The notes under the pieces: model-generated
What the model was told of the DNA's origin: nothing
What the model saw: only the letters and a program-made list of their open reading frames with translations
Databases searched by the model: none
Source of the DNA: Azolla caroliniana
Taxonomy: Eukaryota; Plantae; Polypodiophyta
Direction of reading: 5' to 3'
Assembly (NCBI GenBank): GCA_043228905.1
Contig: JBHGNT010000017.1
Span: 10,602,001-10,666,000 of the forward strand
Length of the DNA: 64,000 bases
Translations under genes and position numbers: made by a program
Shown here: piece after piece, positions 2,277-32,286 of the stretch
Layout: every line of letters starts with the position of its first letter
How positions within the stretch are numbered: position 1 is the first letter of the stretch

Positions 2277-2343
2277 TTCGCCCCCACCAAACCTGCACAT
2301 CGACCGGTATGTGCCAATTTTGGTGAGGATTCATTTTTGTTTA

Positions 2344-5300
2344 CTATACTTTTTTATCGATGCTTAAGACTAAATCGTCAAAAGCTTCGAATCCAATTTC
2401 TATTCTATCTCTTCTCTTGAAGATCTTGATTCTTTTACCGGCAATTAGCAAGGCAAGTGGTGTACCATCCAATTCTACTAAATGATATGTTGCATTATCT
2501 TCCACTTTCTTCACCACATATGGCCCAAACCATCGTTGTGAGAATTTTCGAGCCGTACTATGTTGGTTATCTAGGCTACTGTCATAGACTAGCACCCAAT
2601 CTCCTTCAACGATTTTCCTCGGCCGAAGTCGATGTCGTTTATCGAAGTCTTTCTTGTTCTTTAGCCTTGCATTCTTTAGCCGCGCTTTAGCCACCTCTAC
2701 ATCTTCCAAATTCCGCTCTAATTGTCGAATCCTCAATGCTAGAAGATCTTCTCTACTTATCTCATCTTGCCATGGCAATGCAAACCATGAAATAATACTT
2801 TGTTCTACCGGCATTATTGGCTTTTGTCCGAATATGAGCTCTGTCGGCATGTATCCCATCACTGTGCTATGAGTAGTCCTGTCAGCCCATAATGCAAATG
2901 GCAATAGACGTGGCCATTCTCCTATTTTCCCATGGCAAGCTTTCACTAGAGCCTTCACAATCGGTCCATGTCCACGTTCCACCTTCCCATTTGCTTCCGG
3001 ATTATACGCCATGGTAAGAGATAATTTGATTCCCATCCTCGAGAAGAATTCTCTAGCTTCATTGGCGTCCAACTCGCCTCTATCAGCCACTATCTTGCTA
3101 ACCCATCCATATCTGCAAATAACATCTTCAAGAAGGAATCGGCATACCGATGATGTCTCCTTAGTTCTTAATGCTCGCCCTTCAACTTGATTGGTAAGTT
3201 CCTCTCTCGCGAGCACAAGATACTTCATCTGCCATCATCCCATTGGCATCATCACTATGTCAACCATCCACTTGTAATGCATAGCCAACGGGTAAGTCGG
3301 ATGAAGTCCATCTCGATGGCGAATATTCGAAAACATTTGACATTCCTTACATGTTTCCACATAAGCTAATACATCTTTGTAGATGCCCGGCCACCAATAT
3401 TTCTCCTTAAGCTTCGCAAACGTAGCCCATATTCCTCGATGGCCTGCAAAAACGCTATCATGAAATTCGGACATTAGTTTTTGTTGGTCTTCTAGCTTGC
3501 AGACAACTCTCATCGGAGTCCCATTCTTCTTTTTTGCATGCTTCCAAAGAGCTCCATCCTTAAGGAAATACTTGTATGCTTTCTTCCGAATTCGATGGAA
3601 GTCTTCCGTCGACCATGATTCATCTTTTTGGAGAGAACTCAAGTATTTCCCGATCTCCACGAATTCGCCTTCGTAGTCCTCTTCTATGAAAGTAATCAAC
3701 ACCCGAGCATAGGAACTTGCAAAGAAATCCAGGCCAACATCATCTTCATCAGAATGTCGATCTTCTTCTCCGTCGTATTTCGCTCGTGATAGCATGTCTG
3801 CAACGACATTACGCTTCCCAGCTACATGACGGATCTCCGGGTTGAGTGATTTGATATATGCAATCCAACGCAACATGGCAATAATCGGTGTATTACAACC
3901 AGATATCATACCTAAAATTGGTAGGCAATCTGTCTCAATTATGACTTCTGCTTCTGCTCCAATAAGGTAATCACGATCAGATTTGATTGCCGAGACGATC
4001 CCCCATAGCTCCCTCTTCACTTGGGCATACCTTCTTTGCCTGTCACTTAACAGTTTCGCGCCAAACCGAATTGCATATCGGTTGCAATCTTCATCTTCTT
4101 GGTTGATAACCCATCCAATTCCAATTGGACTAGTATCCACAGTCACGAAAATGGGCTTGCCGTATGAATAGTCCGCTTTCCGTAATGCAGGTGCCTCCAT
4201 CAAAAATTTCTTCAGCCTTCGGATGGCGATTGTATGCTCGCTCGTCCATTCGAACATCCGCTTCTTCTTTAGTAGACCATATAATGGCTCAGCAATGTGG
4301 GCGTAGTGTAGAATCCAAATATGATAAAATGTGCATGCTCCAAGGAACCTTCGAACCTCCGTTTGGGTTACACATTCTTCTTTCATGTCTTGAATTGCAT
4401 TCACCTTGGATGGCGAAGGCTTCCGACCGTATGCTCCACACAAGTGACCTACCACCAAGATCTCCGGTTGCCCGAATGCGGATTTTTCTCCCGAAAATGT
4501 CAAATTCGCATCTTCGAGCCTTTGGAGCACCTTCTCGCAATCTTTCATATGATCCATGACGAACTTTCTACATCCATCCTTATCTTTTGATTCATCCTTC
4601 TCTTCATCCGAACATCCTTTTATTGGAATATCATCTAAGAATGGCATCGTGATATCCGGGATGCAATCCTTCAAGACCTTGTTCATGGCATTCACCATAT
4701 GAGCCACCGAGTTCGTTGCGCCTTGAGGTAAGGTACACATCCGCACCAACCCGATTGGAGTTTTCATGGTTGTAATGTCACGACTGTCGACCGCCAACTG
4801 GAATTGATCGTAGCTAGAGTAAAGATCGCCGATGGAGTAGATGGACCGGCCCGCAAACGCCTCGGCAAATTCATCCACACTCGGACCTATTCCAGCATTC
4901 CAAATTGTCACCTTGTTGACGGGTTGAAGATCTTGAATGAATCGCAACGATCCATTCTTCTTTGGCACCGTGAACCACCTATTAGAATAAGGAGCGTTCG
5001 ACGGTTCTAGAATTCCCATCCTCACCTTCTCCTTTAAGAGCTCGATCAGCTTCGGTAAGTGTGCTCTCGGAACCGGTATCGGTTTCAAATTCCAAGGCAC
5101 ATGCGGCACCATGAAGATCACCATTGGTTCTACCGTCCTTGGATTAGCACACCCGATTTCTTGTGGGAAAAACGCGAAAGCCTTCCCATGTCTTTCAAGC
5201 ATTCCACGAAACATCCGCTCCTTTTCAGGGAGGAGGAAATCCTCCCTTCCAACTCGTAGCTTTCCCTTCGTCTCTTCAGTGAAGATGTGACCAATTTATT

Positions 5301-5804
5301 TGGGTTCCTTAAGCTTGGATCTTTTGCAACTTCCTTCATCTTTTGCCAGCTATCTTCCGGTAGCGGAATTGCAACTGGCTTGATCTTCCTATCCACAGTT
5401 TTATATTTTGTGTTGACTTCGACTTCCTCTATCAAGATGCCTCGATGATATTCATGGATGATAGTATACATGTTGACGGAGTTAACCGAAATCACATGTC
5501 GATGGTGAGGATAGCTCAAATCCACGAGTTCCTCTATTTCACCGATGGTGTCATTAAATGAGGCTTCCTCCAGAATATATGACACGAATTCTTCTTCTTC
5601 GATTATGCTTTCTTCTTTCAGCACCTCCTCGAAGTCTTGTATCTGACACTTTTCCTTCTTGTTGAGTAGTCTAAGTTTGCATGCGCTGCCAGGTGTGACG
5701 CATGTTGCTTCTCCTTGCAATCCACGCACTTTGCTTCCTTGTGGGGACTTATGATTGCTCGGACTATTTGTGCCCCATGCTTCAATAGTCCGCTTCAAAA
5801 ATCC
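2344..5804 (-). pseudogene. Gypsy pol (RT-RNase H-integrase), lightly disabled
   Basis: RT LPQGATNS...FLDD; RNase H VDTS...KRELWG...ETDCLP...VADMLSR; integrase H-H-C-C (H..GHRG..CKEC) and ADRGE..NGKVER. One frameshift near 5295 and an in-frame TGA at 3235-3237. Confidence 0.92.
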
Positions 5805-8011
5805 GAGGATTCGCCTCCAAGGCTATCTCGGTTCCTTTCATGATTAGCTCGAACCGTCAGGAATTGAACGGATCTTTTACTATCAAGACTCTTGACGCGC
5901 GCGAAGGCTGCTCCATTATCGAACACCTTGGTCTCCATCCGGGACGATGTTATATATGGTTGTCCTAGGATGACGGAATGTGAAGCCGAGTCTTGCACGA
6001 AGAAGTGTTGATCAATCTCTACATCCCCGATCGTGACTTTAACGTTGGGGCAAGCTCCATACAAGTCCTCTGTAGCCTTCGTCGCCGCTCGAATCTTCCA
6101 TCCGTGGTTTGTATTAATCGGCCATCTTCCTTTCTTATAGAACTCGGTCGACATGAGGTTGATCTCAGAGCCATGGTCAATCAAAGTGACCATGGTCTCT
6201 TTCTTCTCCCCGATCTTCATCGGTGTCTCCGTTGTCGCTCTTGCCCAATGAGGCCGCGAGTAATGGCTATCCACCACCACTTCTTCTTCCTCCTCCTCTT
6301 CCGATCTTGCCATGGTTATGGCACTTTTTTTGACCTCCTCTTCATCAGATTGTTGTCGCTTCCTCTTAATAAGGTCCACGATAGTATCATGGAACTCCTT
6401 CTTCGCGATCCCAAGTAGCTCTCTCAAGGTAAGGTCGACATGACTATCTAAAACCTTCTCCTCAAGGACCTTCCGCAAGTTAGTTGTTTGTTCTATGTCC
6501 GACCTTAGCTTGTAAGTCGGCGCTGCTCGTTCTTTTCCTTTCTTCGTTGATTCTTCGACTTCCATCCGAGCAGGTTGGCTCGATCCACCGGGATTCATGT
6601 TTGTTTCACCAATCTCTTTTCTTGGGATAGGTTGGGGTGGCCCTTCTTTCCCTCCGTTCCTCGTGTTAGGTCGCTTTGATGTACCATCTTCTTCACCGGT
6701 TCTCTTCCTCTTCTCTTCGACAAGGGCTTCATAGGTGTCACACACAACCTCCACAAAGCTTGTGTTTTCGTCGATTGGATCTGACCATCCGGTTGCTCGT
6801 CGCACGTTTCGGTCAGCAAGTTTTAGATCCTCCGAATTGATTTTGCCTTTTTCTTCGCACTCGAAGACCGTTGGCCAAAACCCAACTCCTGGCTTTATCA
6901 TTTTAAGATTCTCTTTTCCAACTCGTATCCCAGCCGAAGCGGCATAGTGCATAGCCTCCACATGCCTTGCATCTTCTTCTTCTACAATCTTTTTCAGCCC
7001 ACCTCTTCCGAAGTTCACTCGTAGTGGCTTCCGGGTCTCGCTCGAGTGAATCATGTTGCCGTCCAAATAGACAACATTCTTCCGGATCGCATCTTGCAAG
7101 TCAGCACATTCCCTTCGTGAGTGTTCAAAGCTATCGCACCACACACATCTATACGCTTCTTTTCCCTTGGGCCCGCGTCGACCTAAGTTGGCTAGCGATA
7201 CCGCTTCAAACTTCTTGGAGAGCTCTTCGATTATAGACTCCTCCATTGCTTTCTTGTCGAAATTGTTGATTGGCTTACTAGGCTCAATCGTCGTAGGTGC
7301 CTTCTTCCACAATTGTGGATTCTCGACCTCAGCTTCCTCTTGCCATTGTCGCCGCTTATCAAAACGGCTGCAAGCCTTCTTCACCGCCGCCCAGTCTGCT
7401 ACCAAACCATTTGGTTGTGTTTCGTCCTCCATGAAACTACCCAATTCTCGCCGATCTTTCGCATCCATTGCCTTTAGGAATAGTAAGACTTTATCTCCGT
7501 CGAGAACTCGTTGCTCGACACTCGGAAGTTGGTTGTACTTCTGGTCGAATTCGGCATAAATTCCCGATGCACACAGATTCTTCCCTTTCTTCTCGATCCA
7601 ATTCATTAATGTATGCCGAGTCATCCGCGATGCGTCTTCAAGCATGTATTCAGTGAGAAGAGCCCTTTCGAACTCCGCCCAAGTTGCATGCTCGTTTTGG
7701 ATCTCCATCACGCGCTCACGGATCCCGGGTTCTACCACACGCTTAAAGCTTGAAATTTGTTTTGGATCATGGACATCTCTTTGTTGCATCTCATTCCGGT
7801 AGGTAGCAAGGAAATTTGTGATGTTCTTCCCACCGAATCTTCCAACTGTCTCCACAGTTCGGTCAACAGCTTTGTCGACTAAAGCCTCCTGATCTCTCTC
7901 TTTCAGCATGAATTCGACGACGGACACCATGCCTTTCGTCAATTCTTCTCCTTGAGTTCCACTTGTCGAAGCCATCTTCGTACTTGATATCCTCCTACTG
8001 CCTCGTTTCAT
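5795..8011 (-). CDS. Gypsy Gag-protease ORF
   Basis: Open ORF with zinc knuckle CVWCDSFEHSRREC and aspartic protease LIDHGSEINLM...VILGQPY. Start is either the ATG in the PBS (8011) or MASTSG at about 7975. Confidence 0.88.
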   Translation of the reverse strand: MKRGSRRISSTKMASTSGTQGEELTKGMVSVVEFMLKERDQEALVDKAVDRTVETVGRFGGKNITNFLATYRNEMQQRDVHDPKQISSFKRVVEPGIRERVMEIQNEHATWAEFERALLTEYMLEDASRMTRHTLMNWIEKKGKNLCASGIYAEFDQKYNQLPSVEQRVLDGDKVLLFLKAMDAKDRRELGSFMEDETQPNGLVADWAAVKKACSRFDKRRQWQEEAEVENPQLWKKAPTTIEPSKPINNFDKKAMEESIIEELSKKFEAVSLANLGRRGPKGKEAYRCVWCDSFEHSRRECADLQDAIRKNVVYLDGNMIHSSETRKPLRVNFGRGGLKKIVEEEDARHVEAMHYAASAGIRVGKENLKMIKPGVGFWPTVFECEEKGKINSEDLKLADRNVRRATGWSDPIDENTSFVEVVCDTYEALVEEKRKRTGEEDGTSKRPNTRNGGKEGPPQPIPRKEIGETNMNPGGSSQPARMEVEESTKKGKERAAPTYKLRSDIEQTTNLRKVLEEKVLDSHVDLTLRELLGIAKKEFHDTIVDLIKRKRQQSDEEEVKKSAITMARSEEEEEEEVVVDSHYSRPHWARATTETPMKIGEKKETMVTLIDHGSEINLMSTEFYKKGRWPINTNHGWKIRAATKATEDLYGACPNVKVTIGDVEIDQHFFVQDSASHSVILGQPYITSSRMETKVFDNGAAFARVKSLDSKRSVQFLTVRANHERNRDSLGGESSDF

Positions 8012-8024
8012 GTCGGGTTCACCA
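8008..8024 (-). promoter_or_regulatory. Primer binding site complementary to tRNA-Trp
   Basis: TGGTGAACCCGACATGA, 4 nt from the LTR end. Plant tRNA-Trp(CCA) 3' end recalled as ...TTCACGTCGGGTTCACCA (1 mismatch). Confidence 0.8.
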
Positions 8025-8028
8025 AAGA

Positions 8029-9059
8029 TGTCGCGAAAATACGACGAGGATACGTGAACGTTGAGGCGGGACCCCGGGGTCTCCGACCAGAGGATAATCA
8101 CATTTGTGCGTTTATATTTTTAACAATTAATAGAAAGAAGAAATTTAATAATTTTCATTAACAAAGGAAAAAGAAATTACAATATGTCCCAAGATTGGGA
8201 TTTAGAAGTTTTAGGTTTACTAAGATTAATAGAAAAGAAAAATTAGGGGTTTTGAGAGATATGGCTTCCGTAGGGAAGATTAGGGTTTTTGAATGTTATG
8301 GCTTCCGTAGGGAATTTTAGGGTTTATGAGAGTTATGGCTTCCCTAAGATAAGAGAGTTGAGAAGGACAAGAAAATTAAGATAATATGGAAAGTGAGTCC
8401 TAGTGTAGGAAAAAAAATGGAATAAATATGGAGTTCTCCCTTGATCATAGCCTTTCCACTTTTTGTTGCATGGCCTCTACTTTTAGTTGCCTAGCTTTTT
8501 CTTTTGGTTGCATGTGACTGTCCACATGACCTTTACTTTTTCCATGCACTCCAACTTTAGTTGCTTGCGTCCACATGGCCTTTACTTTAGTTTGTTGCAT
8601 GATCCAATCTTTCGTCCGTCCGCGTCCAACCTCGTCCAGTAGCCGGTTCCATTTTGCTTGTCGGCCGGATTCGGTTCCATTTTGCTTGTCGGCCGGATTT
8701 GCTTACCGGCCCGTTTCCGGATTTGCTTACAGGCCCGTTTCCGGTTTTAGGGAATTTGGCCACCATCATCCATCAAGACAAAGTGGCCAAAGTGCTCTTA
8801 GCACAAATGAAAAATGAGGGAGCTCAAGGTGTTTATATAGCCAGGGCCTTAAATTTCCTATCTATGTGGGATAGTTCTAATTTCTCTATCTAATCAAACT
8901 TCATTTTCTTATAACTTGATATGTATTTCTCCATTTTGTATATAGTAAAATACATTTTGAAGCTCTTGAGTATATCCATCTTTCTATAGTAAGCTACTAA
9001 TCTAATCTATAATAATTATTTCATTATTTTTTTACATAGTGTGTGAAGATTCACAGACA
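8029..9059 (-). repeat. 5' LTR of Gypsy element (1031 bp)
   Basis: Direct repeat of 799-2276; adjacent to the PBS. Confidence 0.93.
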
Positions 9060-11356: not shown

Positions 11357-14300
11357 ATGGCTCAAAATAACAACCCGATGTCATCCGCTCAAGCGGAAGG
11401 AACTCAAGGAAATCCTCCTAGACAAATGTCCATTGAGATGTATTTTTCACAACTAACCCAATACCTTAGTTTCACCACTCAACAGATGACCGAACTTCGG
11501 CAATCTCAAAGTGCTCTCAAGGCATGTGTCATTAGTTCACAACGTGAGACTAATAGACCTGATGAGCGACAGGGTGAACCATCGTTTGTCGTTAAGCCAT
11601 TTACGGGAGAAAAAAAGGAAAGAACCGAAGAAGCAATCTGCACGTGGCTGGGTCGATGGGAGTCTCATTTTGAGCTCTATCCCACACCAGATAGTACGAA
11701 GATTGCATATGTCAGCCGAGAACTAGAGGGTAAGGCCGCCGTTTGATGGCATGGGCTCCGAACATTGGGGAAATTGCCCGATACCTAGACAGATTTTGTC
11801 ACACTTTTTAAGGGCCAATTTCTGCAACCTCCCTCTCGAACTGAGGCAGCACAAGCTTTAATGAACCTCTCTAGCACGAAGTTTTCCTCGCTAGAAGACT
11901 ATGTTCACCATGCTAGAACCCAAATCCAAAAATCGGGTCTAGAAGGGGACAACTAGTTAATAGTTTATTTTGTCAATGGCATCCAATCACTGGATAGTGC
12001 ACGATAAGGATCCAAAATCCTTCGAAGAGGCCAGTGAAATAGTTCTTCGCTATCAATGCACTTCGAAGGACCACAACAAACCGAACGAAGCGCCCGGGAC
12101 TAAGCAGTCGCAATTCGCTGGGAAACGCCAAACACCCAACGAATTCATGGATCGTGATTGTAAGCGACAACATCCTTTTTGTGTATTCTGCAAAAAGAAG
12201 GGTCATACAAAAGAGCAATGTTGAAAGCTCCAACGAAAAGAGCACGACAACAAAGCTAAAGCTACAGACCATAAAGGTCAGATTCCTAATGTCCTTCATG
12301 TCTATACACATCATTTAAGTAATTGTCAATGTTCTTTCCCTCACTATGTATTGGGTCCCAATGATTTACTACGTGCAAACGGGTATATCAAGGGATCTCC
12401 CATACAATTTTTGTTTGATTCGAGAAGCTCACACAACTTTGTGAATGATCGTTTGGTTCAGATATGGGGAATCCAACCCACCGTAAGTGATCACACCTAT
12501 ACGGTGCACTTGGCTGATGGAAGAGTACAATACATCAACAGGGCGATTCATTCATTAGGAATTTCTATTGATACTTATATAGAGGAAGTAGACTTCCATG
12601 TAATGAATCTTTGTACCACTCATGTAATATTGGGTTATCCCTGGTTCTATAATAAAAACTCTTCTTTATCTATTGATTGGGTTCATCATTCAATAACTTT
12701 TGTATTGAACGATTGTACTCATTTTATTAAATGCGTAAAAAAACAATCCCTCTCGATTGTTTCCTCTCCATCAATATCTGAGTTGTTTTGTTTTACTCTA
12801 TTTTATTGTGTACTTGATCCGGACATTCACGTTTACAATATTGATAATGTCTCGGTTCAATTAACATATTTTGAACAACAACAACTTGATGAAATCTTAA
12901 ATGATTTTCATGATATTTTTCAGAGTGAACTACCAGATGGGTTACCTCCTAAATGTAATATAGATCATCATATAGATATTGTACCTTGCGTTGCACCAAT
13001 AAGTATACCTCCTTATTGCTTAAGTCGATCCAAAGAGGATGAGGTATCTAAGCAACTCAAGGACTATTTATGAATGCGTTATATATGTTATAGTGAATCT
13101 CCATGGGGTGCACCAGTTCTCTTGGTTAAAAAGAAAGAGCGCACATGGCGTATGTGTATTAATTACCGACGCTTGAATAAAGTGACGATCAAGAATTCGT
13201 ATCCATTGCCCCGAGTTGATGATCTAATTGACCCTCTCCAAGGAGCTCGGTATTTTACGAAACTTGATCTCCGTACTAGCTACCATCAAATTCGTATAAG
13301 TGAGGACGATGTTCCTAAAACGACATTTCGTACACGATTTCGTGAAGATTTTCAGCAATGGTGTGAAAATTGCATAAAACATACGAAATCGAGTATGAAT
13401 CACATAAAACAATAATAGTGAAGATACTAATTTGAAATAAGTTTAATATGTTGGTACAAAAAGATGGGGGTCTTCAAGAGCTTTCGAATGCACTTTACTA
13501 CATAAGAAACAAACATCTAAGTCTCAAGTTATGTGGGTACGAAGTTTGCAAAAAAAAAGAGAAAAATAAAACTGTGAGATATCCCACAAAAACAGGATAA
13601 ATAATGATCTCACCATATATAAGGTAGAGCAAAAGCTATTATCTTTGTGTCTATGTGTGGAGCATAGAGAGTTCAAGGTGACTTGAACTAAGCTAATTGG
13701 ATGAGTGGGTGTGGCCTAGCTACTTGTAAAGGTCTTGGCCAACCAAAACCGGCAGCAACCGGTGGGGGAACCGGCGACAACAACTAGCAGCGGAGCCGGT
13801 GAACCAGCGGCGGTGACAGACGATATCCGGCGACCGGTGACCGGCATCCGGTGAGGTTTTGGCCAACCAAAACCGGCGGCAACTAGTGGCGAAACCGGTG
13901 ACCAGCATCCGGCAACAGATCCGGTGACGGACAGTGACCAGCATGTGACAACCTCGGGATGCGAACCGAACCGGGCCAAACCAAACAGATGCAAATCAGT
14001 CAGGTCGGTTGATCACGGTGTTTAAAAGATATTTGGTCCAAAAGTCTAATAGTATTTTGTGCTTTAAAAAAGATGTAAGCAAGACTCGAACTTTGCACCT
14101 CCAAGATAGGAAGCAATAGGCTTACCATTAAGCCAAATCATTTCATTAGGGAATATATTTTTATCATTATAGATTTACATGTAAATTCTCATATTAGGGC
14201 TTGATTGAGTGACATATGATGCATGAGCGCGAAATGGCAAACTTGCATCACATGCATTTCATGCATTGTATGCATGTCTTGTACCCTCACATGCATCATA

Positions 14301-16992
14301 TGCATGGGAGCATCTATAAAAGGGTGGATGAAAAAGATAAAAAGGAGCTTTGTACTTTATATCAAAATTAATATTAAGAAGAAAATTCGTTATCCAATTG
14401 ATGTATTAATCTTGTTCGTCAAATCTAAAGTCAAGAGTATCAATCTTAATCTCTCACAATCTAAAGTCAAGCGTTCTCTCTCTCTCTCAATCTATCTTAA
14501 ATCCTTTCTCGCTAAAGCTAGTGCAACTTCGAGTCCTTCCGGTCCAGAACCCTGGCGGTTCCGCCTCACGATCCGTGCGTAGTGACGGATCTTCACGACA
14601 ACGTTGTGGCCATTATGAGTTTTGGGGTATGCCTTTTGGTTTGACCAATTCTCCGACTACATTTCAACAAGAAATGAATGACACTTTTCGAGAACAACTT
14701 GGAAAAATTGACGTTATTTTCTTGGATGATATTGTAGTTTATAGCCGTACATTACAAGAACATGCTAAACATGTCCACTTTGTTTTACAAACATTGCGTA
14801 ACAAACAGTTTTATGCGAAGATCTCAAAATGTGAGTTTTTCAAGAAATCAATTACTTATCTTGGACATCTCATAACCGAACGAGGAGTTGAAATTGATCC
14901 TTCTCGCATCTCATTCCTTGGTTTTGTCGGGTTTTTGTAAAAATCCCTTCGTAATTACTCCCAATTGACGACACCATTTACTAATTTTCTAAAAGGTCAA
15001 ACGCGTAAGTCTACAAAACCTATTGTCTGGAATGCTACACAAGACCTCGCCTTTAAGGAACTCAAGGACCTGGTGTGCAAGGCTCCTTCACTTCTTTTAC
15101 CTGATCCTTCAAAACCTTTTGAGGTTGAAACCGATGCAAGCGATTATGCTATAGGTGTTGTCTTATATCAAGATGGTAAACCAATAGCATTCGAGAGTAA
15201 GAAACTTGATTCTGCTCAATGTCGGTATACCGTTCAAGAAAAGGAGTTATTTGCAGTTATACATGCGCTCAAAACATTGCGCCATGAAATTTATCGAAAT
15301 CGCTTTGTGGTAACTACGGACCACGAGTCCTTGAAATATTTTTGTGACCAACAACACTTGAAAGTTCGTAAGGCACGATGGGTTGATCTCATCCAGGACT
15401 TCGATTTTTCCATACGATATCATAAAGGTTCCATGAACACTGTCGTTGATGCACTAAGTCGCATCCGTGAAGTTAACATGCTTAGCTTCACTAAAATAAC
15501 ATCAGATCTTTATTATCACCTTTGAGGAAAGTATCCTAATGACAGTTATTTTGCAAAATATTGGGCAAGAGTTGAGTCTAGAACAGACACCACTACATCG
15601 TCGAAGGAATACTTCCACATTGCTAATGGTCTACTCTACCATAATGGGAAGGTTTGTGTTCCAGATTTGCCTGAGGTCAAAAAGAGAATTCTCTTTTAAT
15701 GCCATGATGCACCCTCAATAGGGCACCCTGGATTACATCGTACACTCGTTCTAATCTCCACTCAATTCTATTGGCCTAGGATGCGCCTTGACATACATAG
15801 CTATGTGACTAAATGTCACCAATGTTAGGTTAACAAAGTCGAGCGACTTAAAGCCGCAGGAATTTTACATCCCTTGGACATTCCCAATAATAAGTGGGAA
15901 AGTATATCCATGGATTTTATTGTTAGCCTTCCTCGCACCCAAAAAGGCCATGATGCCATCTGGGTTGTGGTTGACAGACTAACTAAAATGGCCTGATTTA
16001 TTGCTACTAAAACCACAGTAACAGCTCCAGAATTGGCTTACCAATTCGTTGACGAGTTATTTCGTTTTTATGGGTTACCGATGGATATCGTGAGTGATCA
16101 AGATCCAAAGTTTACTGGTGACTTTTGGACGCAAGTCTTTAAGAAGTTAGAAACTACATTGACCATGAGCTCCACGGATCATCCTCAATCCGATGGACAA
16201 ACAGAACGAGTAAATCAAATTATTGAGGACATGCTTCGAGCATACATTGGTGCAAAACCAACAAAATGGGAACGTTATCTCCCAATTTTGGAGTTTGCTT
16301 ATAATAGCTCTAAGCATACGTCGATGGGATATAGTCCTTTTATGTTGATGTATGGTTTTCAGCCACGAGCCCTGATTGATGTTAATATACATCATGATGA
16401 GTTGCGAAGTACGCAAAACTTTTTTCAGGATATGCAAGATATGTTGCATATTGCACGAGATAATATAAAAATAGCTCAAGATAGAGCGCGTTTTTATGCC
16501 GATCATCATAGGCAACCTCGTGTATTCAACCTTGGACAAAAGGTATTTTTACGTGTACCTCACAATTCTAAGACATTGTCTAAGGGTAAGTGCGCTAAGT
16601 TAGCCCCACAGTTTTCTGGACCTTTTACAGTCCTCAAATGCATTGGGTCATTAGCCTATCGTCTCGCTCTTCCCGATGGTGTTGAAATTCATCTAGTTTT
16701 TCATGTGAGTTATCTAAAAGAACTTCTAGGTTCTGGTGACAATACAGTTACAACTGAAACTCTGGTTACTTCTGAAGAATTATCTTCTAAACCACATGTA
16801 CCAGAAAGAATTCTCGATGTTGAAAAAAAAAAATTATGTACTAAAGAAATCCAAGAATTTAAAATAAAATGGATGGATAAATTAATAAAAGATGCCACAT
16901 GGGAACGCAAAAATACTCTGAGAACAAACTTCCCTAACTTTCCATTGCAAGAGTTCAATGTTTTAAAGAGGGGGAGTATGTTACAGGCATGA
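11357..16992 (+). pseudogene. Chromovirus gag-pol, fragmented
   Basis: ORF fragments 11267, 11970, 12351, 13074, 14521, 14965 and 16033 in gag-PR-RT-RH-INT-chromo order, with stops and frameshifts. Confidence 0.9.
13338..14600 (+). mobile_element. Gypsy solo LTR inserted in chromovirus RT
   Basis: T(T)TCGTGAAG...TTCACGACA termini; TSD ACGA/ACGT. Removing it plus one 4-bp copy restores RT motif FRTR-(C/Y)GHYEF. Homologous to 21301-22952. Confidence 0.88.
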
Positions 16993-17432
16993 CCATATAA
17001 TGTTCCGTGGTGAGAATTTACCGTAGTATTCTATACACGTGGATAAGTGTGAGGGTTAAACGAGAGTGTAAAGAAGGGGAGGATTACTTTTAATCCTCAG
17101 GATTGAGACAACCCATTAGGCCAAGTGTGAACTTGCCTGGGGGCCTTGGGTATCGCTATAATCAAGAGGCCTCGCTACCCTCATTTTATGATCTTTTGAC
17201 TACGTCGAGACTTTGTTTCTCGGTGGTTCAACTCTTGTAGTGAGCGCGCCAGCACTAGGTACGACTCGATGCCACGGCGGTGGTATGGGACGCCAATCGA
17301 GGGTCGAGTCTGTCTCGATCCCTTCGCTCGGGGGTGGTTGGGTGGATCGGTACCCTTCTTTCTCTCTTTCCTCTCTATCTAGATCTATCGTTTATCCCTA
17401 TCCTTTGCTTACATTAGTACATATCTCTAATA
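16979..17432 (+). repeat. Chromovirus 3' LTR
   Basis: Follows PPT AAGAGGGGGAGTA; homologous to 48008-48464(-). Confidence 0.9.
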
Positions 17433-18556: not shown

Positions 18557-18711
18557 GAGACATAATTAAAACATTTAATTATCATTAGAAAAAATTACAT
18601 GGGGTTTGGGGGGTGGGGGATGGGGGGCATGGTCTAATGCTACTCGCAAACTAGTTTCTCCCCTAAGGGCTCATCAGTGCCATAAGACCATGAGTGAACT
18701 TGAGGGGTTTT

Positions 18712-19410: not shown

Positions 19411-19539
19411 GTTTTATATAGGGTTTAGGAGGGAGGGGTAAGATGGATGGTGGGGAAGGTTCAAATTAGGGAGTGGGGGATGAGGGTGTGCTATGTGCAC
19501 ATGTGCACTTAAGAAAGGAAAGGGTAGTGGGTTTATGTT

Positions 19540-21201: not shown

Positions 21202-21300
21202 TAATGGAAGATTAAAACAGAAGTGGAGGTTCATGCACTTACACCGAAGAGACAACACAGGATGTTTACATGGAAAACCCTAATAGGAAAAACACCACGG

Positions 21301-22952
21301 TGTCGTGAAGATTTTCGGCAACGGTGTGAAAATTGCATGGAATGTACAAAATCAAGTGTGGTTCTTCACACACAATATGAAACAATAATAGTGAAGATAC
21401 TATTTTATATTAGTTTAATATCTTGTTACGAAAAGATGGATATCTTCAAGAGCTTCTGAATGCACTTTACTACATTTGAAATAGACAACTAAATGTCAAG
21501 TTATGTGAGTGTAAAGTTTGAGAAGAAGAAGAGAAAAACAAAACTATGACATATCCCACATAGATAGGACAAATCAGGATCCCACAGTATATAAGCAGAG
21601 CTAGAACTCATTACTTTTTGTCTTTGTGTGGAGCATAGAATGTTCAAGGTGACTTGTGCTAAACTATTCCGTTGGATTGATGTGGCTTAACTACTCATAA
21701 TGGTTTTGGGGAACCGCGACCGGACAGACGGCGACGGAACCGGATTCGGATCGGGCCGGGTGCATCCGAACGGCGACGGAACCGAATCGGATGCACATTG
21801 AACCGGTCGAGCCCGGACAGACGGATCGGTCTGGTCAGGTCGGTCAGATAGGTTGATCGCAACGCACGGTCGGTGTCTTGAAGATTTCGGTGTGAAACGA
21901 ACAAAAAAAAAAATTGTCTATAAATTCCATCGGCTCATTGGAGATCGATTGAAGGTGTAATATGTAGTTAAACATTTAACAATCGGCAACGGTTCGGTTC
22001 GGTTTGAGAGGGTCCAAACCGAACCGTTTTAAAATTTTGAAACCTGAACCAAACTGAGAAACCGTTAAACCGAATCGTTAAATTTTTTTCAAACCATTAA
22101 ATCGTAAAAACCGCGGTTTCGTGGTTCGGTTTCGGTTTTGAACATAGGTCTAATTTTTAATTTTTTAAAATTTATAATATTTCATGATTTAAAATTTTTA
22201 AAATTTTTAAGATGTTCCTAAAATGTGAGAATAAGGTCTAAAAATGAAAATATTGTTTAAAAACAATTTTTACATTTTTTTAGAATTTTTTTTTAAAAAA
22301 AAAAACCGTTTAGCCATTTAAACCCCGGCTTTTGATTGTTGAAACCGAACCGAACCGTTGAAACCGTTAACATTTGTAAACTACAAGACTAAAGCCTAGT
22401 AATATTTTGTGCATTGAAAGGGATGCAAGCAAGGCTTGAACCTTGCACCTCCAAAACAGGAGGCAATAAACTTACCACTAAGCCAAATCGTTTCTTTAAG
22501 TTATATTTTTATCATTACAATTCTCATACATGAGAGCTTGAATGAGTGACATGGTTATCATGCAATACATGCAATGCATGAGCGCCAAATGGCAAACATG
22601 CATCACATGCATGTCTTGCACCCTCACATGCATCATATGCATGGGGGCATCTATAAAAGAGTGGATGAAAAAGAAAAACGGAGCTAGGTATTAATCAAGA
22701 AATTAATAAAAAAATAGAAAATTCATTATCCAATTGGTGATGTATTAATCTTGTTTCTCAAATCTAAAGTCAAGGGTTCAATCTTAATCTCTCTCTCTCT
22801 CTCCATCTCAATCTTTCTCTCGCCATATCAATCTCTCTCAATCTATCTTAAATACTTTCTCACTGAAGCTAGTACAAACTTCAAATCCTTCCAGTCCAGG
22901 ACCCCCGCGGTTCCGCCTCACGATCCGCACATAGTGATGGATTTTCACGACA
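21301..22952 (+). mobile_element. Gypsy solo LTR containing a MITE
   Basis: TGTCGTGAAG...TTCACGACA termini; TSD ACGG/ACAG; homologous to 13338-14600. Confidence 0.9.
21977..22369. mobile_element. MITE / non-autonomous DNA transposon
   Basis: Imperfect TIR TAAC...CAACGGTTCGGTTCGGTTT; flanking direct repeat ACATT; AACCG subterminal repeats; absent from the homologous LTR at 13338. Confidence 0.8.
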
Positions 22953-23379
22953 ACAGAAGCGCACAGACTCCAACTATCACTATGAGGGGACGAATACAAT
23001 CTGAGACTCAAAGGCAACGAGCTTGAGCTCTATGTCTTCGCCAACAAGCAGTTACAAACAGAAACTAGTTTTGTATCTCTCCCTCTCTCTCTCTCACGCT
23101 CTGTGTACAACGATGATACAACAACAACTCTCACTAATGTGATTTCCCTAAGTCATATTTATACTTATATGACATTTGGGCTATTTACAAATATAGCCTC
23201 GATGGGCTCACTCTGAAACATATTTACACATATGTCCTTGGATCTGGTTTGCACCAGATCCATCTGGATTCACTCGATCCGGTTTCCAGGTCTCATCTAG
23301 AAACCTTCCGAATATGGTTCCTTCATCCGGCTCATCCAGATCCCATCTAGAGGGACTGAATTCCCAACAAACTCCCCCT

Positions 23380-26300
23380 TCACTCCGGCATGGGATTTCT
23401 TGTTAATCTAATCCGTCTTCGGCACGCGTCCAGCTTGTCGATTGGAAGCACCTTGGTTAGCATATCTGATCCGTTCTCCTTCATGTGGATCTTCGTCAAC
23501 CCAAAGCCTTGATCTTCTAATCTCTCCTGGATCCAGTGATACCTCCGCTGGATGTGCTTCATCCAGGAATGGTATGCCACGTTCTTTGCAAGGTGGATGT
23601 CACTTTGACTGTCGTAGTAGAGCCGGTATTCCTCCTATCGGACCCCTAGCTCTCCGATGAAGTCCTTCATCCAGATTACTTCCTTGTCGCTTCCACGGCT
23701 GCCATATACTCTGCTTCCGTTGTTGACAGTGAAACGAACTTTTGCAGCCTCGACTGCCATGATACGGCTCCCCCTCCATATGTCATGACGTATCCAGATG
23801 TGGACCGGCTGGTATCCGAATCAGACGACATATCTGAATCCGTAAAACCTACCAATTGGGGTTTACCTAAGCCGAATCGGAGGCACATACTCAAGGTACC
23901 TTTCAAATACCGAAGTATCCACTTGACTGTGTTCCACTGCTCTCCTTCCGGATTGCTCATGAACCGGCTGACAACTCTGACAACATATGCAATATCCGGC
24001 CAGGTGTACACCATTGCATACATTAGGCTTCCAACGGCAGAGGCATATGGTATCTTCGTCATATCCGACTTCTTTGCCTTTGTCTTCGGGCTTTGCTTTC
24101 TAGACAGCTTGCAGTTTGCCGGAAGTGTAGATCCGACCGGTTTTGCCTCCGACATGTTGAACCGTTGAAGCACCTTTGTCATGTACTTTTCTTGTGACAA
24201 CCACAATAGCTTCTTCTTTCAGTCCCGGATGATGTGCATCCCCAAAATATGTCTTGTCAGACCCAAGTCTTTCATTCAGAAGGTCTAGTTTAGGGCCTTC
24301 TTCAGTATTTGTATCTTGACTTGGTCTCGTCCGACGATCAACATTTCGTCCACGCACAGGAGCAATATAAGGAAATCTCCTCCGTCAAATTTTTTCACAA
24401 ACACGCAGTGGTCAGCTTGCGTCTTTTGGTACCCTTGGTCGGTCATGAAGGAGTCGAACTTCCGGTACCATTGGGGGGGGGGGATTGCTTCAATCCGTGT
24501 AAGCTCTTCTTTAGCCGGCACACCAGGTGTTGCTTCCCTTTCTTCTCAAATCCTTCCGGTTGATGCATGTAGATCTCTTCTTCGAGGTCGCCATGTAGGA
24601 ATGTTGCCTTGACATCCAGTTGCTCTACCTCGAGGTCCATGCTTGCCGCTATGCTCAATACCGTCCGGATGGATGTCATCTTTACTACCAGGGCGAAGAT
24701 CTCGTCGAAATCCACTCCTTTCTTCTACTGGAAGCTCTTCACCATGATTCGGGCCTTATACCTTGGTGGATTTCCGGCGTCTCCCGGTTTCAGCTTGTAC
24801 ACCCACTTGTTCCGGAGTGCCCTCTTTCCTTTCGGCAACTCCGTCAGTTCGTATGTGTGGTTCTCATGTAGGGAATCCATCTCGTCCTGCATGGCACTCA
24901 ACCACTTGCGGTTGTGGGTGTCTTTATTTTCTTCTTCTAAGCTTTTCGGCTGCCCCTCATCGGTCAGCAATACGTGCTTTGTATCTGGGAATCTCCAGGG
25001 GGCTCTTCTCTCTTAGAGCGGATATCTCTGAACTTGGTTTTCGGCAACCAGTTCCTTCGTTTGTTCTTCATCTGAATCTGATTCGGGGTCTTGTCCAGTT
25101 TCGGTGTCTCCTTCTTCTTCTTCTTTGGTTGGTTTGGTTTCTGCTCCGAATCCGGCCAATTCATCGAGTGTCATCCGGCTTCCAGCCGGATGGGTCCTCA
25201 ACTCCTTCAACTGATCTTTGCATGTTGACCCGGAATTCATTATCTTCTTCTTCGACTCCCAGTCAGCAATGGTCTTATACTCCATGAAGATAATGTCCCG
25301 ACTCCGGAAGACCTTCTTGTCGACCAGGTCCCACACTCGGTAGCCAAACTCGTTGTCGCCATATCCGAGGAATATGCATGCCCGAGACTTCGAATCCAAC
25401 TTTGCTCTCTTGTCCTTTGCAACATGCACATATGCAAGACACCCGAACACCTTCAAATGTCAGTAAGACACATCTTTACCGGTCCATACTCTCTATGGTG
25501 TGTCTCCATCCAAGGGTACTGAGGGTGATCTGTTAATCACGTATGTCGTCGTCATCAGCGCCTCAGCCCAAAACGTCTTGGGTAACTTTGCATTTGCTAG
25601 CATGCTCTGAACTCTCTCCATTATGGTTCAGTTCATCCATTCAGCCAACCCATTCAATTCTGGTATCTTTGGCACAGTGAATTCGAGCCAGATTCCCTTC
25701 GATCGGCAATACTCCTCGAACTGCCCCCCGATATTCTCCTACATTATTTGCTCGAACCGCCTTCAACTTCCGGCCGGTTTCTCTCTCCACTCTCGTGTGG
25801 AGCTCCTTGAAGAAGAATAACACCTGATCCTTCATCTTCAATAGTGAGACCCACAACTTTCGACTGTGGTCATCTATGAACACCACGAAGTACTGCGATC
25901 CGGCATGTGACTTCGTGTCCACTTGACACACATCGATATGCACCAGCTCTAGTGGTGCGTTCCATCTCATCGGTGGTCTTGACCAGAAGGAGGTTCGATT
26001 TTGCTTGCCGGCCAAGCAACCAGTGCACTTCTCAAGATGCACGTCTTTCACCTCCGGAATGAGGTTATCTTCAGCAAGTCTTCTCATCCCTTTCTGACTC
26101 ATGTGACACAACCTCTTGTGCCATAGCTCACCGGCAGTGTCAGATGCTATGTTCACTTCTTCCTGGCCTATCCAGGCATGCATCAGATACAACATGGTGA
26201 TCTTCCCGGCTAGAGCCACGATCAGGCTTCCCTCGTTGAACTTCATGACTCCATTCCGGATGCTACCCATGTAGCCTTGAACCCTAGGCCTCCCCCTTGA

Positions 26301-26990
26301 CTTTGACCTTGTCCCCGACTTTTCCCGATTCTGGGGACTCCGATACCGGTTTCTCCCCCGGTTATGGTCATCTTCCGTGACCAAGGCCTTCGGATCGGTT
26401 CCGGACTCCCGGTTCTTCCGGCGAGCTTCTTCATCTAGCAAGCTTGATTTTACCTTTGTTAGGGACAACTTCTTTCCTTCCGGCCCGGTGTTGCCCAAAG
26501 TGACAACTAGCGTCTCCCAACTATCCGGGAGGGAGCCCAACAAGAGCAATGCAAGTACCTCGTCGGCTAGAGGTACTTTCAGCGAAGTTGTTTGGTTTAT
26601 GAGCCCCTGAAATGCGTTCATATGCTCCGCCATGCTGGATCCGTCCTGGTACCAGAGTCTCACTAGCTTCCAGAATACCGAAACCCGATTTTCGACGTTT
26701 TTACTCTCCAACATGGTGCCGATTTTCTCCTAGAGCACATGAGCCTTACTTTCTTCATTGAAGTTGTTGTACAGGCTCATGTCGATGAAGCACCGGATGT
26801 ACGTCGTTGTCTTCATGTGCATCACCTCCCATGTCACGACATCGATCTTGTCCGGTTTCTTGTCCCCAAACTGTACCGGCAGCCAAAGATCTTTGACCAC
26901 GAGCATGTTCCTCATCTTCGACTTCCACACTAGGTAGTTGGAGCAGTGAGCTTGAACATGCCGCTGAATGGTTCTTCCATTTCCTTTGTT
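23380..26990 (-). pseudogene. Copia gag-pol, fragmented, protease region deleted
   Basis: ORF fragments with WHKRLCHMS, FIDDHSRK, AMQDEMDSL, DVKATFLHG and STTEAEY motifs. Confidence 0.9.
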
Positions 26991-27074
26991 CGTTCTGATA
27001 CCAATTTGAGAGGAATAGAGCTCGGCCACAACCGAGACTCAAGCACTTAATGGAAGATTAAAACAGAAGTGGAG

Positions 27075-27345
27075 TACCCAGTGAGAATCAGAAGGAGGAA
27101 CCGGTAAGGACTGGACCCGATAAGGAGAACCGATAAGAACCAGATCAAGCAGAACCGGCAAGAGCCGGACGAAAAGGACCGGTAAGGAGGACTCGGTAAG
27201 AACCGGATAAAGAAAACCGGTGAGAACTGGATGAAGCAGACCCGGTGAGAACCGGATAAAGAAAACCGGTGAGAACCGGATGAAGCAAACCTGGCAAGAG
27301 CCGGATGAAGAAGGCCGGTGAGAGTTTCTCACTGGATGAAGAGAC
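27075..27345 (+). repeat. AGAACCGG-rich minisatellite in LTR (partner copy 30172-30445)
   Basis: Repeated AAGAACCGG(T/A) units in both LTRs. Confidence 0.85.
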
Positions 27346-28009
27346 AAATTTGTAAATAAAAGAAAAGATTGTTACATGCATAGGGCAGGATTCAAACCCT
27401 ATACCTCCATGTTAATAATGTAAAGCCTTACCATTACACTAACATATCATTAGTGTTAAAAAAGTAAACGTCCCACATAGAAAGGTAAATTCACGCTAGG
27501 ATAAACTTTAGTTAGAAGAAAACGCATGATAAAAGAAAAAGCTGCGCATGCACATGTAGCGTGCATGAACACCATAATCGATAAAAAGACATCAAATTAG
27601 AAAAAGTAGGATGACTTTAGAAAAAGCATAGAGTCTATCTATAGAAAAAGCATGGATTGTTAAGACTCTCTCATCACTATATAAGGATGGGGAGCTCAAT
27701 GTAATAGGGGTGGGATGTGTGGAATATTTGGAAATTAGATATATTTCCTAAAACACCAATTAATATAATATATTCGTGGGATTCACGAATTTGTGATCAA
27801 AATTATCTCTTACTATTTAAATATTGATTAAATACATTAAACTCGTGGGATTCACGAGATTCATAACTTACCTATCTTTCTACCTATTCATTACTAGCCT
27901 TATCTCAGATTCTTCCTCCTCCTAGTCCAAAACCTCAGTGGTTCCCACCCGACTCACGCAACGATCCGGAGCCGAAAGGCATGACACAAAGTGGTGAACC
28001 CGACGTGAA

Positions 28010-29395
28010 ATGGGTGGCAAGGAGATGGAGAATCAACAAGAGGCGATGAACACGATGATGATGATTATTGAGCGGATGCAACAAGAACAACGCGCGATGT
28101 CGGAGATGAAGGCAACAGTAGAGTGGGTTGTGCGACGAAATGGGGATTTCAATGGAAAGGATGTGTCACGTTACCTATGTGACTATAAGGCGGAGATGAT
28201 GCAATGTCGAATACCGAAAGGATTGCAAGTGATATCCTTTAGTCGGGTGGCCTCAGACGAGCTGCAAGAGAGCATATACGAGATACGACAACAAAACACA
28301 ACGTGGGTGTCCTTTGAGAAAGCACTATTGGAGAAGTATGACTACGAGAGATCGATGGGACGAGATCGACGCGAGTTTGACTAGTGGGTGGCATCGACAA
28401 AGACTCATTGAACTGCGACACTAGCATTCTTAGAGTTTGAGTAGTTTTGCTCAACTCTCGGAGTGGGAACAAAGATCGGTGGGGGTGGATAAAGTCCTAA
28501 TGTTCGTAAGATCAATCAATCGAAAAGAAAGGATGGACATTGGGATCGAACTCAAGACGATGACAGTGCGAATGGTCTTACCGAGGATTGGGCTGAAGTC
28601 GAAAGAGTATGCCGAAGACATGATAAGAGGAAGATGAGAATATCATTGGCAACAACATGGCCTATAAGGGATGATCGATTAAGGATAAACGATGTGACTG
28701 ATACGAAGGCTGAAGTACGAGTCGATGGTACCACGGGAGAGGGTGTGGAACAAGGCATCCTCTCATCTTGCGAAAGAACGATGGCCAAGGATAAGGTCGA
28801 TGACTTGAGAGTGGCGAACACCACTTCAAGAACGGAAGAAGGTTTCAGAATACAAGTATCCGAAACATCAGGTGAAAAATGGGTAAGCATAATCGATTCT
28901 TGCATGATCGAGGGAGATAAAGAGTGCGAGGACGACATGATTGAGGAGATAGCCACGAAAAACGACATCGAGTCAGAGGTGTCTATGGACGAGCCAATGG
29001 CGGATGACCGTATCGAAACTTTCTCACCACTGATTCCAAAGACTCTAGCGGTTGCGTTCGAAAGGCAACGTGAGACCGAAGAGACGGAAGGTGGTGGAGA
29101 GAAAACGAAGGTCGAAGCCGATGCATACAACGGAGAGATAACCGAGAAGGTGGCTATAAGTGAAACGATGGAGGACGATAATACTGAGGATTCCTGCCCA
29201 TTAATTCTAGAGACTTCGGCGGTTGTGTCCGAGTACCAACGTGAGACCGGAGAGACAGGAGGTGGCGGCAAGAAAGGTAAAGTCAGAAGTTGGTTCGGAT
29301 GGAAGATGATCCAGACAAAATTCCGATCTAAACAAAAACCGACCCGAAAGGGGGCCGACTCGGTCAAAACCGATCAACCGAGTCCACGAATCTGA
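28010..29395 (+). pseudogene. Gag-like capsid region plus acidic low-complexity extension
   Basis: FNGKDVSRYL..Y..EM...SFSRV....WVSFEKALL and VDKVLMFVRSI..KER align with FGGKNITNFL..Y..EM...SFKRV...WAEFERALL and GDKVLLFLKAM..KDR of ORF 5795-8101. Contains stops and frameshifts. Confidence 0.78.
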
Positions 29396-32286
29396 TCGGA
29401 AGCCGATCCAACCGAAAGTTGATCGGACAAGACCGAATCAGAAAGAAGCTAATACGACTCAACCGAAAGCCGATCGGACAAGACCGATCCGGAAAAAAGT
29501 CAAGGTTGCTGAAGACAAGAAAGAGGCCAAGAAAAGACACTACCACGGGCAACAAGGACCAAGCGGGCCAAGTGGATTTGACGAGTGTTACCAAGGATGA
29601 GATCTTAGCAAATACGGTGAGCTCTATCATGAAGATTATCAACTCTAACACGAGATTATACAACAAAGATGAACAAAGTGGGAAGCATGGCACATGCACA
29701 AGACAAGAAGGGTTATGCTCAAGAGGATCACAAGGAGCCATGACAACCGGCCATGGCAATGTAAAGATAGAACAAAGAATATGGTGGATCGGGGATGGCG
29801 ACAATGGTTCGGGTGGAAAGAATGGACGTGCTCAAAATGGAGAGACAAAGTCGGCATAGCAAGAGAAACGGAGGGGATTGCGAGTAAAGGAGAAATACAA
29901 GAGCCGACAACTGATAACTAGGCGGAGCAAGCAATTGAAAATCGAAAATCGGACAGAGCTGTCAACCGAACAAAACCGGAAACCGGGCGGAGCCGGCAAC
30001 CAAGCACGACCAGCGACGAAACCAACCGAGCGGAGACTCGACGGACAAGACTAACAATCACCGACAACTTCAGCACATACCGAAGGACATGCGGGTTTGG
30101 AGGGGGCAAGTGTCGTAGTGTAATTCGCACACTACGTGAAAAATTATTTTTTGGTCTTTCCAGATAGGACATGGAGTACCCGGTGAGAACCGGAAGGAGG
30201 AACCGGTAAAGACCGGACCCAATAAGGAGAACCGGTAAGAACCAAATCAAGTAGAACCAGCAAGAGCCGGACGAAGAGGACCGGTAAGGAGGATCCGGTA
30301 AGAACCGGATAAAGAAAACCAGTGAGAACCGGATGAAGCAGACCCGGTGAGAATCGGATAAAGAAAACCGGTGAGAACCGGATGAAGCAGACCCGGCAAG
30401 AGCCGGATAAAGAAGGCCGATGAGAGTCTCTCAACGGATGAAGAGACAAATTTAGAAATAAAAAAAAAGATTGTTACATGAATAGGGCAAGATTCAAACC
30501 TTGTACCTCCATGTTAATAATGTAAAGCCTTACCATTACACTAACATATCATTAATGTTAAAAAAGTAAACGTCCCACATAGAAATGTAAGTTCACGCTA
30601 GGATTAACTTTAGTTAGAAGAAAACGCATGAGAAAAGAAAAAGCTACGCATGCACATGTAGCGTGCATGAACACCATAATCGATAAAAACGCATTAAATT
30701 AGAAAAAGTAGGATGACTTTAGAAAAAGCATAGAGTCTATCTATAGAAAAAGCATGGATTGTTAAGACTCTCTCATCACTATATAAGGATGGGGAGCTCA
30801 ATGTAATAGGGGTGGGATGTGTGGAATATTTGGAAATTAGATATATTTCCTAAAACACCAATTAATATAATATATTCGTGGGATTCACGAATTTGTGATC
30901 AAAATTGTCTCTTACTATCTAAATATTGATTAAATACATTAAACTCATGGGATTCACGAGATTCATAACTTACCTATCTTTCTACCTATTCATTACTAGC
31001 CTTATCTCAGATTCTTCCTCCTCCTAGTCCAAAACCTCAGTGATTCCCACCCGACTCACGCAACGATCTAGAGCCGAAAGGGATGACAACGGGAGCCCAC
31101 AGACTCCAACTATCACTATGAGGGGAGGAATACAATGTGAAACTCAGAGGCAACGACCTTGATCTTTATGTCTTCGCCAATCGACGGTTACAAATAGAAA
31201 CTAGTTCTGTATCGCTCTCTCTCTCTCTCACGCTCTGTGTACAACGATGATACAACAACAACTCTCACTAATGTGATTGCCCTAAGTCATATTTATACTT
31301 ATATGACATTTGGGCTATTTACATATATAGCTTGGATGGGCTCACTCAGTAAAACATATTTACACATATGTCCTTGGATCCAGTTTGCACCGGATCCATC
31401 CGGATTCACTCGATCCAGTTTCCGAGTCTCATCCGGAACCCTTCCGGATCCAGTTCCTTCATCCGGTTCGTCTGGTTCTCATCCGGAGGAACCGAATTCC
31501 CAACAAGTTCGAAGTCTCCACCATAAAAAAATCCTTAAAGACAATAAAAGAATACACACTCTTATTCTGAAATCCACATGACAACATTAGCTTAGTGCTA
31601 CTGCCCCTTTATGGAAAACCACCATATTCAACAAGGGCACACATAATCAAATGGACCATTTGGTTGCCCATATCCTTTAACTTGCAAAACATCATCTTCT
31701 CATGTTAATGGACTCATCAATAGGCACTAAACAAGGTTATCATTCGTCAATGTATAAATACAAAGATAGGGAATGAGTAAAAAATTAATTTGGATATAGG
31801 AATGAGAATCTAACTTGGCAAAACTTGATTATCTCATGAATGAACAAATCAGTTATGACAACAAATCTATGTAGCAAGAATTCCAACTTTTGAAGCATAT
31901 ATATATTAATGAGTAATACTCGTGCACTATTTATGGTTGTGAACCATCGTTCTCCCGCACCATCTTTTGCACTATTTATTTTGTGTCAATATACATGTGT
32001 GGGAATGCCTTTCAAAAGTCCTATGTGAGATCCATGTGAAGAAGATACTTAATGTTAGTGTTGCTTACGGTTAGTCCAAAATAATCAGGTTTGATATGCT
32101 TCAATCTTATTTTAAACATTATTAAACACAAGAGAGCCCTACTGGGGGGCTCGGGGAAACAAGAGAACAAAAACATAAACACAAAGAGAGAGAGAGAGAA
32201 ACAAAAAGAACAAAGTTACCCAGAAAAAAAAGAAAAAAAAAGTGAGAAACAAAAACAGTTCACCCGAAACACAGAACCGCACACAC

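What the first reader, a model, noticed from the sequence alone, without database searches (positions are those of the whole stretch)
21297..31092. Two different Gypsy-clade elements inserted at the same nucleotide of the two LTRs of one Copia
Seen: the solo LTR 21301-22952 sits at AACACC-ACGG in one host LTR. The gag-only element ends at 31088 and is followed by ACGG-GAGCCCACAGACTCC, the same position in the other host LTR. An uninterrupted relative at about 57430 reads AACC-ACGG-GAGTCCACAGACTCC. The two inserts have clearly different sequences, so one insertion copied into both LTRs does not explain it. Inference: a sequence-specific integration hotspot, i.e. a Gypsy lineage that targets a conserved motif in Copia LTRs. 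Caveat: the left junction of the second insert is deleted.
Basis: partly seen in the sequence, partly recalled or inferred. Interest (0 to 1): 0.8.

Follow-up and report, generated by a model that had tools for sequence, protein, structure and literature searches.

The report
CpG-seeking retrotransposons hit same site twice
Two different jumping genes do sit at the same base in the two end repeats of an older one, but their families insert at four-base CG words all over the genome, a habit already described for moss Phygy elements, so the double hit is most likely an ordinary coincidence and not targeting of the older element.

Summary
Observation confirmed, interpretation not supported. A Gypsy solo LTR (21301-22952) and a gag-only Gypsy (27070-31088) both sit at ACGG in the two LTRs of one decayed Copia, and they are independent insertions. 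Both belong to an abundant lineage (at least 5,084 exact primer sites) with 4-bp target duplications: 51 of 61 genomic LTR ends of insert 2's family abut NCGN, and 9 more abut its deaminated forms; the background is 3.4%. ACGT is the favourite word. This matches the published Phygy profile (4-bp NCGN, tRNA-Trp primer site). The ACGG site is hit in 4 of 7,086 Copia LTRs (0.06%). An ACGT 28 bp away is hit in 26 of 7,139 (0.36%). Neither exceeds my rough genome-wide rate for its word. Given one insert in each LTR, the chance of the same base is about 0.15-0.24. What is left: a high-copy Phygy-like lineage, likely in a fern, with a refined ACGT preference; conserved CpG words in Copia LTRs are hit repeatedly as a by-product. 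Three look-ups found no earlier scan note on this.

The parts
21202..21300 (-). Host Copia 3' LTR, piece left of insert 1 (outer end deleted against a different truncated Copia)
   Evidence: 27 of 27 identical to 27048-27074, and 42 of 53 to the uninterrupted LTR near 57430
21297..21300 (.). Left copy of the 4-bp target site duplication, ACGG
21301..22952 (+). Insert 1: solo LTR of Phygy-like Gypsy family A
   Evidence: TGTC...GACA ends; 40 best genomic copies 95-100% identical at the start; relatives carry the same primer site and a DUF4100 gag
21978..22368 (.). AT-rich MITE-like insertion inside insert 1
   Evidence: absent from family copies L005, L009, L014; inverted ends; relative at 41240-41595
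22953..22956 (.). Right copy of the duplication, ACAG (likely deaminated ACGG)
22953..23369 (-). Host Copia 3' LTR, piece right of insert 1; purine tract at 23372-23380
23370..27006 (-). Host Copia internal region (decayed gag-pol), with a tRNA-Met-type primer site next to 27007 (isotype recalled)
   Evidence: Pfam copia gag and gag-pre-integrase; 79% identical to the intact Copia at 51558-54712
27007..27074 (-). Host Copia 5' LTR, piece left of the deletion; 5-nt microhomology with insert 2 at 27070-27074
27070..27986 (+). Insert 2, 5' LTR (first ~61 bp deleted), family B
   Evidence: 871 of 917 identical to its 3' LTR
27992..28008 (+). Primer binding site shared by families A, B and others (read as tRNA-Trp from recall)
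28009..30110 (+). Insert 2 internal region: decayed gag only, purine tract at 30099-30110
   Evidence: 27% identical to the gag of the window's complete relative; 76% DNA identity to autonomous family-B copies L164 and L166
30111..31088 (+). Insert 2, 3' LTR
31089..31092 (.). Right target-site copy of insert 2, ACGG
31089..31505 (-). Host Copia 5' LTR, piece right of insert 2
57434..57437 (.). Empty ACGG site in a related Copia LTR (comparator)
13338..14600 (+). Second family-A solo LTR, inserted in a chromovirus RT gene, flanked by ACGA and ACGT (same lineage, non-Copia target)
1909..9059 (-). Near-complete Gypsy of the same lineage (DUF4100 gag, RT, RNase H, integrase; no chromodomain); its outer flank at 9060 reads CCGC

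Best explanation
Two independent Gypsy elements of a lineage that duplicates a 4-bp CG-centred word (NCGN, most often ACGT, then ACGG/CCGT) inserted at the same ACGG in the two LTRs of an older Copia, and the shared position is most likely a coincidence among the few good CG words of a 570-bp LTR. Shown: the 4-bp NCGN duplications genome-wide; the independence of the inserts; insert 2 being younger than the host; and the site being hit no more often than its word predicts. Inferred: the integrase itself reads the central CpG of the target, as a symmetric complex would; and conserved CG words in Copia LTRs become recurrent landing sites only because thousands of copies keep them.
For: Family B: 51 of 61 non-primer ends abut NCGN and 9 abut NTGN/NCAN (hand count of the 100 listed rows of 2,555; script check on the 30 fetched loci: 17 + 4 of 21). 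Background NCGN is 3.4% in 34 arbitrary 10-kb stretches. Family A: 12 NCGN + 9 decayed of 25. Solo LTRs duplicate 4 bases, not 5. Neighbouring ACGT: 27 Phygy-like junctions, 26 after dropping one duplicate pair, over 7,139 sites, from several families and in both orientations. Rough expected per-site rates are 0.12-0.31% for ACGG and 0.44-1.1% for ACGT, above the observed 0.06% and 0.36%. P(same site | both LTRs hit) is 0.15-0.24, and 0.1-0.6 such double hits are expected in this Copia clan alone. Host LTR divergence K2P 0.116 against 0.052 for insert 2. Published Phygy profile (PMC6317226).
Against: The double hit fell on ACGG, not on the hotter ACGT (although the ACGT has decayed to ACAT in the left LTR). 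The expected rates rest on a rough total of 10,000-25,000 insertions and on family B's spectrum (60 sites) applied to all families. Only two LTR positions were counted genome-wide. Orientation is skewed at both sites (5 of 5 forward at ACGG; 17 reverse to 7 forward at ACGT; p about 0.06 each), which may hint at some flank readout beyond the 4-mer.
Confidence: 0.85

Rival explanations
1. A Gypsy lineage specifically targets a conserved motif in Copia LTRs, with a hotspot at this ACGG.
For: Both LTRs of one element are hit at one base. Six junctions at this site are known genome-wide, from several families. Recurrent insertion at the neighbouring ACGT is real.
Against: 0 of the first 100 listed copies are interrupted; 4 of 7,086 against 26 of 7,139 at the ACGT; both rates are at or below the estimate for their word. 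Flanks of family A and B copies are varied, and only 1 of the 61 family-B ends is at this site.
Confidence: 0.05
2. The 4-mer preference is real, but a further layer (flank sequence, CpG methylation or local chromatin) raised the odds for this old nested element or this site.
For: The window holds four insertions of the lineage in 64 kb. There is a weak orientation skew at both sites. The base just after the duplication leans to G/T (31 of 46).
Against: No clear extended motif in 46 downstream and 18 upstream flanks (a few upstream rows are internal mismatches). The site is not enriched.
Confidence: 0.07
3. One ancestral insertion was copied into both LTRs by retrotransposition of the Copia, and one copy was later replaced or diverged.
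For: Same position and same orientation; both inserts start TGTCGT and end in A[CT]GACA.
Against: No similarity above shuffles. The inserts belong to different families with many separate copies. Insert 2's LTRs (K2P 0.052) are younger than the host's (0.116; Fisher p=3.5e-4). The other site junctions pair different hosts with different inserts.
Confidence: 0.03

Closest known systems
Phygy, non-chromovirus Ty3/gypsy clade of Physcomitrella (Neumann et al. 2019, PMC6317226; passages and the whole of Additional file 5 read)
   Same: 4-bp NCGN duplication; primer site read as tRNA-Trp; no chromodomain or archaeal RNase H; compact coding region
   Different: Here likely a fern-type genome with at least 5,084 primer sites; complete copy L166 is 7.28 kb (Phygy range 7.66-9.97 kb); gag-only derivatives; ACGT strongly preferred and TCGN absent (0 of 60). 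Phylogenetic placement not tested.
Phygy nested in Tcn1 at similar positions (Jedlicka et al. 2019, PMC6911290; passages and section 7 read)
   Same: Recurrent nesting of Phygy in other LTR elements; 4-bp duplications with a GC-rich centre
   Different: In that paper the sites differed by at least 50 bp; here identical-nucleotide recurrences are seen (26 at one ACGT)
TatI (PMC6317226, Additional file 5)
   Same: 4-bp duplication, tRNA-Trp primer site
   Different: TatI carries archaeal RNase H (100%); none was found here
Drosophila errantiviruses, ZAM subgroup (PMC5408687, passages read)
   Same: Short palindromic CG-containing target (CGCG), sequence-biased integration
   Different: Animal, env-bearing, AGT/AnT termini; an analogy in how it works, not kin

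Membership tests
Phygy | 4-bp target site duplication with NCGN | tested here: met
   51 of 61 NCGN plus 9 decayed; 4-bp, not 5-bp, match in solo LTRs
Phygy | tRNA-Trp primer binding site | tested here: inconclusive
   A conserved primer site follows the LTR in both families; the Trp isotype is recalled, and no tRNA gene was on hand (0 in window)
Phygy | No chromodomain, no archaeal RNase H, no extra ORF | tested here: met
   Pfam on the whole pol ORF of L166 and on the window's relative shows RT, RNase H and integrase only
Phygy | Element size 7.66-9.97 kb (descriptive range) | tested here: inconclusive
   L166 spans 827-8106, i.e. 7.28 kb, slightly below the moss range
Phygy | RT/RH/INT clade membership | not testable with these tools
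   No named Phygy reference sequences were on hand; named homologs are from Riccia and Adiantum at 48-70% identity
TatI | Archaeal RNase H domain | tested here: not met
Selgy | tRNA-Ala primer site; 4.4-6.7 kb | tested here: not met
   Complete copy is 7.28 kb; primer site read as Trp from recall; profile
Chromoviruses (Tcn1, Galadriel) | Chromodomain at the integrase end | tested here: not met
   None; only 23% identical to the window's own chromovirus pol

The most novel reading that the evidence does not exclude
The integrase of this Phygy-like lineage reads methylated CpG (best in ACGT), which would steer new copies into already silenced transposon DNA without a chromodomain. Conserved CpG words in Copia LTRs would then act as renewable landing pads that knock out a competing element family, with flank-dependent orientation.
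Probability: 0.15. Interest if true: 0.6.

Novelty: new member of a known kind. Interest (0 to 1): 0.22.

Why it matters
As a targeting system it does not matter, because the Copia-specific hotspot is not there. What remains is modest. A Phygy-like, CG-word-specific Gypsy lineage is one of the large repeat groups of this genome. Thousands of sites could define its target motif precisely and test whether it reads CpG methylation. It also warns that same-nucleotide nested insertions by this lineage are not evidence of common descent.

Tried and rejected
One search carried host flank in the query, so its left flanks are biased towards CG; I did not use them for counts. One search was mis-spaced by one base and served only as an offset control (1 row, no junction). 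One search was swamped by an unrelated repeat (351 matches; 2 true junctions in the 100 rows listed) and was replaced. Rows dropped before counts: 39 of 100 rows followed by the primer site, and one further non-CG row left out of the 60-site spectrum, 9 of 12 rows that were host variants, 10 of 39 chance or host-native rows, 2 of unclear element type, and 1 duplicate (L138/L246), 1 of 5 rows host-native. A copied-insertion model and a 5-bp duplication were rejected. No extended flank motif was found. Literature: 'Phygy' as a whole word gives 18 papers (listing). I read passages of PMC12885004 (Phygy in a liverwort), PMC8282616, PMC9033089 and PMC13469084; none of those passages places Phygy in a fern. 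Searches (listings only) showed no paper on same-nucleotide Gypsy hits in Copia LTRs. Subscription papers and REXdb updates were not searchable. Earlier-findings look-ups gave nothing on target preference.

Full report
Observation. The host is a decayed minus-strand Copia with LTRs at 21202-23369 and 27007-31505. Insert 1 (21301-22952) is a solo LTR flanked by ACGG and ACAG. Insert 2 (27070-31088) has two LTRs, a primer site and a decayed gag, and is followed by ACGG; its left junction is lost in a deletion of about 60 bp on each side, with a 5-nt microhomology. The host LTR halves align from the insertion point (368 of 410 columns), so the position is identical, and they are each other's closest match among the copies compared (88% against 81% or less).

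Independence. The two inserts align no better than shuffles (26-30 against a maximum of 33 in 50 shuffles). Insert 2's LTRs differ by K2P 0.052 and the host's by 0.116 (p=3.5e-4), so insert 2 arrived after the host had integrated. A single insertion copied into both LTRs is excluded.

What the inserts are. Family A (insert 1) and family B (insert 2) share a primer site after the 5' LTR, which I read as tRNA-Trp from recall. That site occurs at least 5,084 times exactly, behind many LTR families ending in GACA; five clear copies among six motif hits in 340 kb of arbitrary sequence agree with several thousand. Family B has autonomous copies (L164, L166: DUF4100 gag, then RT, RNase H and integrase; no chromodomain, no archaeal RNase H) and shorter copies of about 2.5-3.2 kb LTR spacing like insert 2. 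The window holds a near-complete relative at 1909-9059, whose pol is 67% identical to that of L166. Its named homologs come from Riccia and Adiantum, so the host is likely a seed-free plant, probably a fern (inference).

Target preference. In an unbiased listing of family-B LTR ends (first 100 of 2,555, counted by hand), 39 were followed by the primer site and 61 by genomic DNA. Of the 61, 51 were NCGN (ACGT 22, CCGT 7, ACGG 6, GCGT 5, ACGC 4, CCGG 2, GCGC 2, three singles), 9 were deaminated forms, 1 was other, and none was TCGN. A script on the fetched loci gave 17 + 4 of 21 for family B and 12 + 9 of 25 for family A, with 4-bp rather than 5-bp duplications. NCGN is 3.4% of background 4-mers, and ACGT is enriched about 240-fold. 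The flanks are varied. The other two insertions of the lineage in the window also sit at CG words, one of them inside a chromovirus RT gene.

Hotspot test. The host motif right of the site occurs at least 1,346 times; none of the first 100 listed is interrupted. A right-junction search found 3 true junctions among 12 rows, two of them the window's own. In the wider clan, 4 of 7,086 ACGG sites carry an LTR start. An ACGT 28 bp away carries 26 independent Phygy-like ends over 7,139 sites, from several families and in both orientations; ACGT stands on both sides in the 9 cases where both junctions were found (p=6e-5 against the ACGG site). With a rough 10,000-25,000 insertions, the expected rates are 0.12-0.31% per ACGG and 0.44-1.1% per ACGT, so neither site is enriched. 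Weighting the CG words of the host LTR by these rates, two inserts in the two LTRs share a base with probability 0.15-0.24, and 0.1-0.6 such double hits are expected in this Copia clan alone. Caveats: exact-match patterns miss decayed junctions; the two sites were counted from opposite junctions; family B's spectrum was used for all families; and only two LTR positions were counted.

Mechanism. Shown: 4-bp CG-centred duplication, independence, age order, no site excess. Inferred: direct readout of a palindromic NCGN by the integrase. Untested: any role of CpG methylation or of flanks (orientation skews of p about 0.06).

Comparison with what is known. Neumann et al. (PMC6317226; passages; Additional file 5) state that Phygy elements prefer NCGN, with 4-bp duplications (100%) and tRNA-Trp primer sites (81%). 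Jedlicka et al. (PMC6911290; passages and section 7) report GC-centred 4-bp duplications and recurrent Phygy nesting at similar positions. ZAM-group errantiviruses target CGCG (PMC5408687, passages). The elements work like Phygy and fail the TatI, Selgy and chromovirus tests; clade membership by tree could not be tested.

Verdict. A real and eye-catching coincidence, produced by a known NCGN-preferring behaviour. New member of a known kind; interest 0.22.

Noticed in passing
   Followed up: yes
L234-L237 and window; L136-L162, L240-L246: Orientation skew: 5 of 5 forward at the ACGG site, 17 reverse to 7 forward at the ACGT site (p about 0.06 each).
   Followed up: partly
window 21978-22368 and 41240-41595: AT-rich MITE-like element with terminal inverted repeats inside insert 1, with a relative near 41 kb.
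   Followed up: partly
window 49764-55070: Young Copia with LTR stretches 100% identical over 598 bp and a single 1,374-aa ORF; related to the host.
   Followed up: no
window about 11500-17400: Chromovirus (chromodomain) Gypsy interrupted in its RT gene by a family-A solo LTR at an ACGT-type site.
   Followed up: partly
window 27126-27358 and 61000-61237: Short tandem repeats about 69% alike are shared between the LTR of insert 2 (Gypsy) and a Copia LTR; capture or convergence is unexplained.
   Followed up: no
G000:C1, spacing of rows; L164, L166: Family B exists as autonomous copies of about 6.5 kb LTR spacing and as shorter derivatives of about 2.5-3.2 kb.
   Followed up: partly
L204-L233: An unrelated high-copy repeat (about 350 matches) shares part of the junction pattern; not identified.
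   Followed up: no
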